From the NCBI RefSeq assembly GCF_044324785.1, contig NZ_CP172127.1: a stretch of 64,000 bases of DNA; one strand, given 5' to 3'. Positions within the stretch are counted from its first letter, which is position 1. The number at the start of each line of letters is the position of its first letter. The DNA comes from Escherichia coli. Its GTDB lineage: Bacteria; Pseudomonadota; Gammaproteobacteria; Enterobacterales; Enterobacteriaceae. Below, in pieces: positions 5,228 to 7,095 of the stretch. The notes under the pieces were generated by a model that saw only the letters and a list, made by a program, of their open reading frames with translations, had not been told where the DNA came from and made no database searches. The translations under genes were made by a program, and so were the position numbers.

Positions 5228-5323
5228 GTCTTACTCATCATCTCACTCACCAGACTTCATTCCACTGACACCAGCCTGAACAGGGCTGGCGTTTTCATTT
5301 ATCTGCAAAAAGGAATATCGATT

Positions 5324-6190
5324 ATGTCTAAAATCACAGTCTCCCGTCCGGAAGTGGTCAACGGGCATACGGACGTTATCTGTTCCACCTCAATCTGCCA
5401 CATTCTGGCTGTACGAAAGAATACACTGCTGCAAATCGACACACTTATCCGGCAACTGGCTGAAATCTCGGTGCTGACGGAAAGCATCGGAGGTAAAACT
5501 GCCCCGGACTGGGCCATGAAACAGGATTTTCGCTGCGGATGCTGGCTCATGGAGAAACCTGAAACGGCAATGAAAGCCATTACCCGGAATCTTGACCGCG
5601 AAATCTGGCGTGACCTGATGCAACGTTCAGGGATGCTTTCCTTAATGGATGCACAGGCCCGTGATACATGGTACCGATCACTGGAATACGATAATTTTCC
5701 GGAAATCAGTGAAGCGAACATTCTGAGCACATTTGAACAACTGCACCAGAATAAGGATGAGGTGTTTGAGCGAGGGGTGATCAACGTCTTCAGGGGACTG
5801 AGCTGGAATTACAAAACCAATTGCCCCTGCAAATTTGGCAGTAAAATTATCGTCAACAACCTGGTGAGGTGGGACCGGTGGGGGTTTCATCTGAACAACG
5901 GCCCACAGGCCGATCGACTTGCCGATCTGGAAAGAATGCTGCACCTGTTCAGCGGCAAACCGATCCCCGACAACCGGGAAAACATCACCATTCATCTGGA
6001 TGATCACATCCAGTCTGTTCAGGGTAAAGAGGACTATGAAGATGAGATGTTCAGCATCAGATACTTTAAGAAGGGCTCCGCGCACATCACGTTCAGGAAA
6101 CCAGAGCTGGTTGACAGGCTTAATGATATTATTGCCAGACACTACCCGGAAGCCCTGGCAAGCACAGTGAACAAAAGCCGCAAGGCATAA
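5324..6190 (+). CDS. Hypothetical protein, 288 aa (possibly DUF4942-like)
   Basis: Clean ORF with AAGGA ribosome-binding site 8 bp upstream of ATG; AT-rich relative to the upstream module; no catalytic motif recognised. Confidence 0.65.
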   Translation: MSKITVSRPEVVNGHTDVICSTSICHILAVRKNTLLQIDTLIRQLAEISVLTESIGGKTAPDWAMKQDFRCGCWLMEKPETAMKAITRNLDREIWRDLMQRSGMLSLMDAQARDTWYRSLEYDNFPEISEANILSTFEQLHQNKDEVFERGVINVFRGLSWNYKTNCPCKFGSKIIVNNLVRWDRWGFHLNNGPQADRLADLERMLHLFSGKPIPDNRENITIHLDDHIQSVQGKEDYEDEMFSIRYFKKGSAHITFRKPELVDRLNDIIARHYPEALASTVNKSRKA

Positions 6191-6261
6191 AAGAGGTATT
6201 TTACAATTCGCGAATATTAACTATTATTAATTGATAGTAATCAATCGGCGAGAAAATAACC

Positions 6262-6525
6262 ATGCCTACCAGTGTATCCCTCAGTCCTTACTTTGAAACG
6301 TTTATCCGCGAACAAATAGAAAGTGGTCGGTACAACAATACAAGTGAAGTCATTCGTGCCGGACTTCGTGCGCTGGAAGAACGGGAACAGCAGATAAAGC
6401 TTGAATCACTCCAGAGCGCCGTGACCGCAGGCATCAACAGCGGTGAAAGTAAAAGTGCTGAAGAGGTATTCGGGCGACTGACGCACAAATACAAAAAGAT
6501 GGCAGAAGGTGAACAGCCAATATGA
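6262..6525 (+). CDS. ParD/CopG-family ribbon-helix-helix antitoxin
   Basis: 87 aa; motif GRYNNTSEVIRAGLRALEEREQ typical of ParD-type antitoxins; 4-bp ATGA overlap with the downstream toxin gene. Confidence 0.8.
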   Translation: MPTSVSLSPYFETFIREQIESGRYNNTSEVIRAGLRALEEREQQIKLESLQSAVTAGINSGESKSAEEVFGRLTHKYKKMAEGEQPI

Positions 6526-6848
6526 AACTGACTGTTTCACCATTAGCAGAACACGATCTTGAAGCTATAGGTGACTGGATCGCTCAGGATAATCCTGTCC
6601 GTGCAATCAGTTTTACCGAAGAGCTTTACCAACAATGTCTGTTGATAGCCGAATCGCCAGTACTCTACAGAGAAAGACCCGAGTTAGGGGCTGGGATCAG
6701 AGGTTGTTCGTATGGTCGTTACCTTCTGCTGTTCAGGGTACTGGATACTGAAGTTCGTATCGAACGTATCGTTCATGGTTCCCGGGATATCAACAGGGTA
6801 CTTGCAGAGCCAGACGACAAACCATCAGATCATTTCTGGCAGCCATAA
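6522..6848 (+). CDS. ParE/RelE-family type II toxin
   Basis: 108 aa; ParE-like pattern including YRVLDTEVRIERIVHGSRD near the C-terminus; translationally coupled to the upstream antitoxin. Confidence 0.8.
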   Translation: MKLTVSPLAEHDLEAIGDWIAQDNPVRAISFTEELYQQCLLIAESPVLYRERPELGAGIRGCSYGRYLLLFRVLDTEVRIERIVHGSRDINRVLAEPDDKPSDHFWQP

Positions 6849-7095
6849 ACAAAATCTGTGCGTTAACGCTCCCTAACACAGGTAGCCAGGTATTTTATAA
6901 ATCTCTGTATTTTGTTGTCACTTCGATTCCGCGATTCAGCATATCGAACCAGATAAAATGATTACAACAAACCACAAGAAAGAGGGATTATAGCGTCAAA
7001 AGAATTCGAATTGCACATGGGGGCCTCATTGGTGGCCTCAAAAATAACAAACACAAAACAATCAATATAAAACAACTTGTTATACAACCAGTTTC

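What the first reader, a model, noticed from the sequence alone, without database searches (positions are those of the whole stretch)
5228..7095. Compositional break inside the island: GC-rich module followed by an AT-rich terminal segment
Sequence up to about 5230 is visibly GC-rich, with many long spurious antisense ORFs, whereas 5230-7095 is AT-rich with few. This mosaic suggests the terminal 1.9 kb (hypothetical gene, parDE, spacer) was added to the island as a separate cargo cassette.
Basis: partly seen in the sequence, partly recalled or inferred. Interest (0 to 1): 0.35.

Follow-up and report, generated by a model that had tools for sequence, protein, structure and literature searches.

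The report
Mosaic island end carrying parDE cassette
The GC drop is real. It marks the patchwork right end of an E. coli tRNA-Phe (pheU) genomic island, where a small, swappable parDE toxin-antitoxin cassette sits between the island's last conserved gene and its attachment site. This is an ordinary kind of island mosaicism, not a new system.

Summary
Window 1-7095 is the distal end of a CP4/P4-integrase-type island in pheU, with attR at 7096-7114. GC falls from 55.0% (1-5227) to 46.2% (5228-7095), which no block shuffle reproduced, but the fall is stepwise.

- **DUF4942 gene (5324-6190).** Its GC3 (0.60) matches the backbone (0.62). The gene occurs in 4029 of 5426 complete E. coli genomes and is the last island gene even where parDE is absent.
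- **Codon-level break.** This lies at about 6190; parDE has GC3 0.42.
- **parDE cassette (about 6148-6923).** It is present in 472 genomes and always chromosomal. It is at least 99% identical in 468 of them, while its flanks differ by 6-9%.
- **Alternative occupant.** An AbiE pair fills the same slot in 667 genomes. The two together account for almost all 1177 copies of the conserved 172-bp att-proximal arm. A decayed relative with an empty slot also exists.
Window 1-5214 is about 99.7% identical to strain GF60's island, and 5204-7123 is 100% identical to strain 1517k's. A homologous-recombination crossover therefore lies about 20 bp before position 5228.

The terminal block has a separate history, but only parDE is cargo. 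The kind of feature is known, and interest is low.

The parts
1..5214 (+). Conserved CP4-type island backbone module. It encodes a YeeP-like GTPase, DUF932, an antirestriction protein, RadC, DUF987, a 214-aa ORF, CbeA, CbtA and a DUF5983N::DUF957 fusion. This copy belongs to the GF60-like lineage.
   Evidence: Pfam hits. About 99.7% identity to L013 (strain GF60) along 1-5214, then a collapse in identity.
5204..5214 (.). Crossover interval of the homologous recombination that joined the GF60-like module to the 1517k-like terminal block.
   Evidence: The last mismatch to L001 is at 5203. The first mismatch to L013 is at 5215. No other complete genome shares this junction at more than 93.7% identity.
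5204..7123 (.). Terminal block 100% identical to the island of strain 1517k. It contains DUF4942, parDE, the arm and the direct repeat.
   Evidence: The flanks are only 88% and 87% identical.
5324..6190 (+). DUF4942 gene (288 aa), the last conserved backbone gene of the island family. Function unknown.
6148..6923 (+). parDE cassette, the variable cargo unit. It comprises a new 14-codon tail for DUF4942, the promoter region, parD, parE and a 75-bp trailer.
   Evidence: Homology to islands without parDE stops at about 6147. Homology to AbiE-type and empty-type ends resumes at about 6922-6924. Pairwise identity among 6 islands is 99.1-100%, against 91-100% (mean 93.4) for DUF4942 and 92-100% for the arm. 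The cassette is at least 99% identical in 468 of 472 genomes.
6200..6227 (+). Sigma-70-like promoter (TTTACA, 16-nt spacer, TATTAT) overlapping an imperfect palindrome at 6201-6220. Putative parDE promoter and ParD operator.
   Evidence: This is a consensus match only. The number of such sites in the region is not above the shuffles.
6262..6525 (+). parD, the ribbon-helix-helix antitoxin (87 aa).
   Evidence: PF03693 E=3.9e-17. TIGR02606 scores 96.9 bits against a cutoff of 46.2. PDB 7b22 and 3kxe ParD match at E about 1e-10.
6522..6848 (+). parE, the toxin (108 aa). Its start overlaps the parD stop codon (ATGA).
   Evidence: PF05016 E=7.9e-18. PDB 6x0a matches at E=2.8e-13; 3kxe and 5ceg ParE also match.
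6922..6931 (+). TTCGATTCCG, a 10-mer identical to the pheU T-arm/att-core segment, lying exactly at the right edge of the cassette. Unexplained; possibly a relic att core or an integrase binding site.
   Evidence: It is the only copy in the window, where 0.13 are expected. The same 10-mer is present in K-12 pheU. Homology among the three types of island end begins here.
6924..7095 (.). Conserved att-proximal arm of Phe-tRNA islands.
   Evidence: Present at 1177 places in 1113 genomes. Shared with AbiE-type ends (L002, 91.5%) and, at about 75% identity, with the empty-slot relic L011.
7096..7114 (+). attR direct repeat, equal to the 3' 19 nt of tRNA-Phe (ATTCCGAGTCCGGGCACCA). Homology to the uninterrupted K-12 pheU locus starts here.
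   Evidence: ARAGORN finds no intact tRNA in the window.
7124..7149 (+). pheU terminator hairpin, part of the core flank.
   Evidence: Identical in K-12.

Best explanation
The composition shift reflects a nested mosaic at the right (attR) end of a pheU-integrated CP4/P4-integrase-type genomic island. It has three components.

1. **Backbone gradient (shown).** GC declines over the last backbone genes, DUF957 and DUF4942, in every member of the island family.
2. **The parDE cassette (boundaries shown, function inferred).** A discrete 0.78-kb cassette of lower GC3 (about 6148-6923) carries a self-contained type II toxin-antitoxin operon. It occupies a fixed slot between the 3' end of DUF4942 and a conserved 172-bp att-proximal arm. 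In E. coli this slot holds either parDE or an AbiE pair. Both cassettes are nearly invariant inside diverged flanks, so they spread between paralogous islands by homologous recombination in those flanks.
3. **A strain-specific crossover (shown).** In this strain a crossover at 5204-5214 grafted a complete terminal block (DUF4942 allele, parDE, arm and attR) onto a backbone of another lineage.

**How it most likely works (inferred from family membership).** ParD represses the operon and neutralises ParE, a gyrase poison. A cell that loses the island after integrase-mediated excision stops making labile ParD and is poisoned. The cassette therefore stabilises the island, as ParE_SO/CopA_SO does for prophage CP4So. 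A role in abortive-infection phage defence is an equally open alternative, because the rival occupant of the slot is AbiE.
For: **Composition.**

**Island end and attR.**

**DUF4942 is backbone.**
- It is found in 4029 of 5426 genomes.
- It is the last gene next to tRNA-Ile and tRNA-Ser in islands lacking parDE.

**Cassette boundaries.**

**Population counts.**
- parDE: 472 genomes, 504 places, all chromosomal, at least 99% identical in 468.
- Arm: 1113 genomes, 1177 places, at least 99% identical in only 48.
- AbiE cassette: 667 genomes, 680 places. The sum 504+680 is close to 1177.

**Identity contrast.** Pairwise identity is 99.1-100% for the cassette, against a mean of 93.4% for DUF4942 and 95.5% for the arm.

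**Empty-slot relative.** It aligns colinearly across a synthetic 6147|6924 junction in 29 genomes.

**Crossover.**

**ParD/ParE identity.**

**Homologous parDE operons.** They occur at 72-76% nucleotide identity on Pantoea megaplasmids and on a Salmonella IncF plasmid, which shows that the operon exists outside this island context.

**CP4So precedent.** PMC8706911.
Against: - No flanking repeats, recombinase or other insertion signature bounds the cassette. The only candidate direct repeat (16 nt, 88%) is at my own rough estimate of chance level, about 0.8 such matches expected in 1.5 kb.
- Direction cannot be polarised. parDE could be ancestral to Phe-type islands and AbiE the replacement.
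- Segment-by-segment identities rest on six fetched loci, although the population identity bands agree with them.
- Function is inferred from family membership only. PADLOC has no model hit for ParD or ParE, and the promoter match is not above the shuffled background.
- The 5204-5214 junction is unique in 5426 genomes. It could therefore be an assembly chimera between paralogous island copies rather than a biological recombinant.
Confidence: 0.7

Rival explanations
1. The whole 1.9 kb (DUF4942, parDE and spacer) is one foreign cargo cassette that was added to an island which originally ended at about 5228.
For: - A recombination junction lies at 5204-5214.
- Exactly this block is 100% identical in strain 1517k, behind a different upstream module.
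- The GC change point is at 5291.
Against: - DUF4942 is present in 74% of genomes as the terminal backbone gene at several tRNA sites, with or without parDE.
- Its GC3 equals the backbone's.
- The GF60-type lineage also has a DUF4942 gene at this position. The event was therefore a replacement of homologous sequence, not an addition.
- The arm 6924-7095 is shared with AbiE-type and empty-type ends.
Confidence: 0.1
2. No acquisition took place. The GC gradient is intrinsic, arising from amino-acid composition and from AT-rich intergenic and att regions. On this reading parDE is ancestral to Phe-tRNA islands and is kept nearly invariant by selection. AbiE islands are then the derived state.
For: - The backbone GC decline is family-wide.
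- Intergenic segments are AT-rich, at 0.28-0.44.
- The slot is almost never empty in islands carrying this arm.
Against: - The GC3 of parDE (0.416) is far below that of the adjacent gene (p=1e-4).
- Non-coding parts of the cassette (6191-6261 and 6849-6923) are also at least 98.6% identical while the flanks are 92-94%. Purifying selection on the proteins does not explain this.
- An empty-slot relative exists.
Confidence: 0.12
3. Tandem-accretion relic. TTCGATTCCG at 6922 is a decayed older att core. On this reading the 165 bp between it and attR is the ghost of a second element. The variable TA genes are then the true ends of different islands that landed at that core.
For: - The unique 10-mer lies exactly at the boundary where the three end types become homologous.
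- Tandem islands at this att site are common: a full integrase follows the direct repeat in L001, L008 and L009.
- An integrase fossil follows attR in the window.
Against: - Beyond the 10-mer, similarity to the tRNA is weak. By my own reading of the two sequences, 4 of the next 13 positions match.
- No room is left for a conserved integrase arm to the left of the motif.
- The arm travels with the island to pheU, pheV and tandem sites, so it is functionally part of the island today.
Confidence: 0.08
4. The 5204-5214 junction is an assembly artefact. On this reading two paralogous island copies in the source genome were joined through the conserved DUF957 region.
For: - Genomes carry a median of 3-4 copies of this module.
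- No other complete genome shares the junction at more than 93.7% identity.
- Both halves have near-perfect matches elsewhere.
Against: - Downstream, the window continues colinearly into the authentic pheU flank and cadCBA.
- Such recombinants are expected among these paralogous islands, and other mosaic tracts with variable endpoints are seen.
Confidence: 0.1

Closest known systems
ParDE type II toxin-antitoxin systems (RK2 ParDE; Caulobacter ParD1-ParE1, PDB 3KXE; Vibrio cholerae ParD2, 7B22; Mesorhizobium ParDE, 5CEG and 6X0A)
   Same: - A ribbon-helix-helix ParD of the CC2985 type followed by a ParE toxin.
- Antitoxin first, with the stop and start codons overlapping.
- Its own promoter region with palindromes.
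- Pfam and NCBIfam scores well above the curated cutoffs.
   Different: - It is chromosomal and island-borne rather than on a plasmid or integron.
- By DNA search it is only distantly related to plasmid copies, at 72-76% nucleotide identity for the nearest.
- No experimental data exist for this allele.
ParE_SO/CopA_SO of the CP4So prophage of Shewanella oneidensis (and, from my own knowledge, MosAT of SXT and SgiAT of SGI1)
   Same: A ParE-family TA module carried by a CP4-type integrative element. In CP4So it maintains the element after excision (PMC8706911).
   Different: - The antitoxin family differs: CopA-like there, ParD RHH here.
- No excision or maintenance data exist for this island.
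- Here the module is one of two alternatives in a fixed slot.
Variable defence hotspots of P4-like satellites and P2-like phages (Rousset et al. 2022, PMC9122126)
   Same: - A fixed position in an integrative element, next to the integration module, holds alternative small systems.
- These include toxin-antitoxin and abortive-infection pairs.
- They are exchanged between otherwise related elements.
   Different: - Within the 7.1 kb of the island held in the window, no ORF carries a Pfam hit to P4 satellite functions. The rest of the island lies outside the window.
- The slot lies at the att end distal from int, after DUF4942.
- Only two occupants were detected, against more than 300 arrangements in P4.
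- No defence phenotype is known, and PADLOC gives no hit.
CP4-44/CP4-57/CP4-6-type cryptic prophage modules and pheU/pheV pathogenicity islands of E. coli (yeeP...yeeS-yeeT-cbeA-cbtA-yeeW module)
   Same: - Same gene order and the same families: GTPase, DUF932, antirestriction protein, RadC, DUF987, CbeA and CbtA.
- Integration in the 3' end of a tRNA, with a 19-bp direct repeat.
   Different: This copy is a recombinant of two lineages. It carries a DUF5983N::DUF957 fusion, and parDE follows DUF4942.

Membership tests
ParDE type II toxin-antitoxin system | Antitoxin of the ParD (RHH, CC2985) family | tested here: met
   PF03693 E=3.9e-17, 62.9 bits against a cutoff of 21. TIGR02606 96.9 bits against a cutoff of 46.2. 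PDB ParD chains match at E=5e-11 to 1e-9.
ParDE type II toxin-antitoxin system | Toxin of the ParE family (RelE/ParE fold) | tested here: met
   PF05016 E=7.9e-18, 65.3 bits against a cutoff of 23. PDB 6x0a matches at E=2.8e-13, and 3kxe and 5ceg ParE also match. The RelE/StbE model TIGR02385 scores below its cutoff (24.3 vs 27.9), which fits ParE rather than RelE.
ParDE type II toxin-antitoxin system | Bicistronic operon with the antitoxin upstream and translational coupling | tested here: met
   parD is 6262-6525 and parE is 6522-6848. They overlap by 4 nt (ATGA).
ParDE type II toxin-antitoxin system | Autoregulated promoter with a palindromic operator | tested here: inconclusive
   A sigma-70-like site at 6200-6227 and an imperfect palindrome at 6201-6220 were found. 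Promoter-like sites are no more frequent than in shuffles. No binding data exist.
ParDE type II toxin-antitoxin system | ParE toxicity (gyrase poisoning) neutralised by the cognate ParD | not testable with these tools
   Requires expression and gyrase assays.
tRNA-Phe (pheU) integrated genomic island of the CP4/P4-integrase type | Island boundary marked by a direct repeat of the tRNA 3' end, with the core flank resuming immediately after it | tested here: met
   ATTCCGAGTCCGGGCACCA at 7096-7114 is unique in the window. From there the alignment to K-12 pheU and its downstream flank is continuous.
tRNA-Phe (pheU) integrated genomic island of the CP4/P4-integrase type | Cognate tyrosine integrase and intact tRNA at the other end | not tested
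   The left end of the island lies outside the window. There is no tRNA in the window, and no integrase family among the Pfam hits for the ORFs of 1-7095.
tRNA-Phe (pheU) integrated genomic island of the CP4/P4-integrase type | Conserved yeeP...cbeA-cbtA module | tested here: met
   Pfam hits. The module is 90-99.8% identical to islands in nearly all E. coli genomes.
Anti-phage defence hotspot (P4/P2-type) | Many alternative known defence systems at one conserved position | tested here: not met
   Only two occupants (parDE and AbiE) account for about all 1177 arms. ParD, ParE and DUF4942 have no PADLOC hit. AbiE is a recognised abortive-infection system; that statement rests on my own knowledge.

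The most novel reading that the evidence does not exclude
The position between DUF4942 and the att arm of Phe-tRNA islands may be a dedicated two-state 'addiction/abortive-infection' slot. It would be filled obligatorily by either parDE or abiE. Cassette exchange would be mediated not only by flanking homology but also by the island integrase acting at the tRNA-like pseudo-core TTCGATTCCG at the slot's edge. That would be an integron-like capture site inside a genomic island.
Probability: 0.08. Interest if true: 0.5.

Novelty: new member of a known kind. Interest (0 to 1): 0.2.

Why it matters
**Practical use.** The result corrects where the module boundaries lie at the end of a very common E. 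coli island family. DUF4942 is backbone. parDE or abiE is the exchangeable unit. The last 172 bp is the att arm.

**Method.** It shows that a raw GC change point can land next to a real recombination junction for the wrong reason.

**Biology.** The slot is almost always filled by one of two toxin-antitoxin modules. That fits the idea that such modules are selected to retain islands, to exclude phages, or both. This is already a well-established theme, so the gain is incremental.

Tried and rejected
- **Flanking repeats as an insertion signature.** The only candidate flanking parDE is a 16-nt repeat at 88% identity (6194-6209 and 6888-6903). My own rough estimate puts this at chance level, about 0.8 expected in 1.5 kb. 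Rejected.
- **Second copy of the att repeat.** None was found inside the island end, allowing up to 3 mismatches to the 19-mer.
- **Rfam scan of 4800-7800.** Nothing relevant was found, only a chance lncRNA hit at E=0.72.
- **tRNA scan.** No tRNA in the window.
- **PADLOC.** No hit for DUF4942, ParD, ParE, the 214-aa ORF or the DUF5983/DUF957 fusion.
- **DUF4942 function.**
  - No NCBIfam hit and no PDB sequence relative.
  - No function could be assigned.
- **Phage collection.** No homologue of the cassette apart from a 131-bp match at 71% identity in a Ralstonia phage.
- **Source genome.** The exact source of the window is not in the complete-genome collection. The best full-length match to 1-7730 is 94%.
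- **Literature.** Searches for DUF4942, parDE+pheU, and TA+pheV+ParE found no description of this cassette or slot.
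Full report
**1. Where we are**

The window begins inside a genomic island.

- ORFs 20-5227 encode the module typical of CP4-type cryptic elements and tRNA-associated E. coli islands. The module comprises a YeeP-like GTPase, DUF932, an antirestriction protein, RadC, DUF987, a 214-aa ORF, CbeA, CbtA and a DUF5983-N domain protein.
- They are followed by a DUF4942 protein (5324-6190), ParD (6262-6525) and ParE (6522-6848).
- cadC starts at 7731 and cadB at 9635.
- ATTCCGAGTCCGGGCACCA at 7096-7114 occurs once in the window.
- Aligned with K-12, this 19-mer is the 3' end of pheU. From there on the window is colinear with the K-12 sequence downstream of pheU, including its terminator hairpin at 7124-7149.
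- ARAGORN finds no intact tRNA in the window.

So 7095|7096 is the right junction (attR) of an island inserted in pheU.

**2. The observation**

*Overall shift.*
- GC is 0.550 for 1-5227 and 0.462 for 5228-7095.
- The best single change point is 5291, with LLR 21.9. None of 500 block shuffles reached that value.
- The support interval is wide, 4725-6186. A two-break model gives 0.556, 0.510 and 0.438, with breaks near 4290 and 5980, and gains a further 4.6 log-likelihood units.

*By codon position.*

| Segment | GC3 | GC at positions 1+2 |
|---|---|---|
| Backbone genes | 0.622 | 0.527 |
| DUF4942 | 0.599 (p=0.47 vs backbone) | 0.446 (p=4e-4 vs backbone) |
| parDE | 0.416 (p=5e-8 vs backbone; p=1e-4 vs DUF4942) | 0.500 |

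- The lower GC of DUF4942 therefore reflects its amino-acid composition, not its codon usage.

*Antisense ORFs.*
- Stop-free antisense stretches of 169 and 180 codons lie opposite DUF4942.
- None lies beyond 6220.

*Related islands.*
- The same decline in GC at DUF957 and DUF4942 occurs in islands at ileX and serX that have no parDE.
- The AbiE genes that replace parDE elsewhere are also low in GC3, at 0.39-0.42.

The compositional shift is thus real but stepwise. A mild decline is built into the backbone, and a sharper codon-level step sits at about 6190.

**3. Comparative anatomy**

*Population counts in 5426 complete E. coli genomes.*

| Query | Genomes | Places | Identity |
|---|---|---|---|
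| DUF4942 part of the finding | 4029 | up to 9 per genome | mostly 80-95% |
| Whole 1.9 kb at ≥80% coverage | 469 | – | ≥99% in 5 |
| parDE (6191-6900) | 472 | 504, all chromosomal | ≥99% in 468 |
| Arm (6924-7122) | 1113 | 1177 | ≥99% in 48; 90-95% in 1055 |
| AbiE cassette (DUF6088 + AbiEii) | 667 | 680 | ≥99% in 602 |

*DUF4942 is the last island gene elsewhere.*
- In islands at ileX (strain CLSC36) and serX (E2348/69 and MS20655), DUF4942 lies 100-150 bp from the tRNA.

*Boundaries of the variable segment.*
- Nucleotide homology between the window and all these islands stops at about 6147. That is inside the last 14 codons of DUF4942, and each variant has its own short tail.
- In a pheV island (strain AVS0366) a DUF6088/AbiEii pair follows DUF4942. 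Homology to the window resumes at 6924 and runs through the direct repeat.

*The slot is nearly always filled.*
- The sum 504 + 680 = 1184 is close to the 1177 arm copies. Essentially every copy of this arm is preceded by one of the two cassettes.

*An empty-slot relative.*
- A synthetic 'empty' junction (5900-6147 joined to 6924-7122) finds a colinear match at about 77% identity in 29 genomes.
- The match is a decayed island remnant beside ynjB. There the DUF4942 3' end runs directly into an arm homologue.

*Identity by segment.*
- Among six parDE-bearing islands, pairwise identity is 99.1-100% for 6148-6923. It is 91.4-100% (mean 93.4%) for the DUF4942 core and 91.9-100% (mean 95.5%) for the arm.
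- Even the non-coding parts of the cassette are at least 98.6% identical.
- The left end of the near-identical tract varies between islands, from about 5905 to about 6107. This is expected if the cassette is passed on by homologous recombination with crossovers inside DUF4942.

*Outside E. coli islands.*
- The nearest DNA relatives of the operon are 72-76% identical. They lie on Pantoea megaplasmids and on one Salmonella IncF plasmid, next to a xerC-type recombinase.
- The phage collection holds only a 131-bp match at 71% identity in a Ralstonia phage.

**4. The junction near 5228**

- Strain 1517k matches 5204-7123 without a single mismatch. The 170 bp upstream differ at 23 positions, and the downstream flank differs because a second island follows there.
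- Strain GF60 matches 1-5214 at about 99.7%, including the deletion that fuses DUF5983-N to DUF957. From 5215 on it drops to 65-82%. Its island ends with a different, split DUF4942 allele beside glnP and has no parDE.
- It exchanged one complete terminal block (DUF4942 allele, parDE, arm and attR) for another. This was an allelic swap between paralogous islands, not the addition of cargo.
- No other complete genome has this junction at more than 93.7% identity. The event is therefore either recent and strain-specific, or a mis-join between island copies during assembly. The window alone cannot exclude the second possibility.

**5. What the parts are**

*ParD and ParE.*
- ParD is a CC2985-type ribbon-helix-helix antitoxin. 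ParE is a ParE-family toxin. Both score far above the curated cutoffs and match solved ParD and ParE chains.
- The two genes overlap by ATGA.
- A sigma-70-like site (6200-6227) overlaps an imperfect palindrome in the 71-bp leader. This is only a consensus match.

*DUF4942.*
- It remains of unknown function, with no NCBIfam, PADLOC or PDB sequence relative.
- It belongs to a large family, with 2217 representatives at 50% clustering.
- Some 460-560-aa relatives carry a C-terminal SAM-methyltransferase domain. This probably explains old 'restriction methylase' names.
- The residues replaced by the cassette junction (275-288) fall largely in the low-confidence C-terminal tail of the model.

**6. 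Mechanism**

*Shown.*
- The boundaries of the cassette, its presence/absence polymorphism and the alternative occupant.
- Its excess conservation relative to the flanks.
- The crossover at 5204-5214.

*Inferred from family knowledge.*
- ParD represses the operon and neutralises ParE, a gyrase poison.
- After the island is excised and lost, ParD decays and ParE kills or arrests the cell. The cassette therefore stabilises the island. This role is reported for ParE_SO/CopA_SO in CP4So (PMC8706911).
- The alternative occupant is AbiE, so an abortive-infection defence role is equally open. The arrangement loosely recalls the variable hotspots of P4-like satellites (PMC9122126).
- Only two occupants were found here, however, and PADLOC gives no hit.
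- The slot sits just outside the conserved arm. That would be the nearest place where cargo can be tolerated without disturbing the presumed integrase-binding arm. This last point is inference.

**7. Unexplained**

- The only copy in the window of TTCGATTCCG lies at 6922-6931. This 10-mer is the pheU T-arm segment that overlaps the start of the att core.
- It lies exactly where the parDE-type, AbiE-type and empty-type ends become homologous.
- It may be a relic att core from an old tandem insertion or an integrase site. I could not decide between these.

**8. Verdict**

- The feature is a normal example of island mosaicism with a toxin-antitoxin cargo cassette. The genes are already annotated as ParD and ParE in hundreds of RefSeq genomes.
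- I found no paper describing this slot, but the kind is well known.
- Interest is low.

Noticed in passing
window 4802-5227 (junction about 4957-5034): The 141-aa ORF is a fusion of the N-terminal DUF5983 domain with a DUF957-like C-terminus. It was created by loss of about 280 bp relative to other islands, where DUF5983 (about 162 aa) and DUF957 (65 aa) are separate genes. The same deletion is present in strain GF60, where RefSeq annotates a truncated DUF5983 pseudogene and a separate DUF957 gene.
   Followed up: partly
window 7304-7557: A degenerate 3' end of a P4-type integrase gene lies between attR and cadC. It is about 70% identical in nucleotides to the integrase of the tandem island in L001, and remnants such as 'RDAVERQM' are visible in translation. 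It corresponds to the K-12 pseudogene yjdQ, and is a fossil of an earlier island at pheU.
   Followed up: partly
window 6922-6931: TTCGATTCCG is identical to the pheU T-arm/att-core segment and unique in the 64-kb window. It lies exactly at the right edge of the parDE cassette, where all island-end variants become homologous. Its meaning is unresolved.
   Followed up: partly
[not shown]
   Followed up: partly
window 3276-3920: A 214-aa ORF has no Pfam, NCBIfam or PADLOC hit. RefSeq labels homologues 'antitoxin of toxin-antitoxin stability system'. It is present in some islands (L002, L006, L010, L013) and absent from others (L001, L003, L004, L007), making it a second variable slot, between DUF987 and cbeA.
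   Followed up: no
window 5271-5289: A terminator-like hairpin followed by a T-run lies between the DUF957-fusion ORF and DUF4942. DUF4942 may therefore be transcribed separately from the upstream module.
   Followed up: no
L007 4346-7302 (strain E15, pheU island): In a related parDE-bearing pheU island, an ISEcp1-blaCTX-M-55 unit is inserted into cbtA. These island modules can act as chromosomal landing sites for ESBL genes.
   Followed up: no
L001 15730-16992; L008 10081-11346; L009 10068-11333: In several strains the parDE-bearing island end is followed, after the direct repeat, by the integrase of a second island. These are tandem arrays at the Phe-tRNA att site.
   Followed up: no
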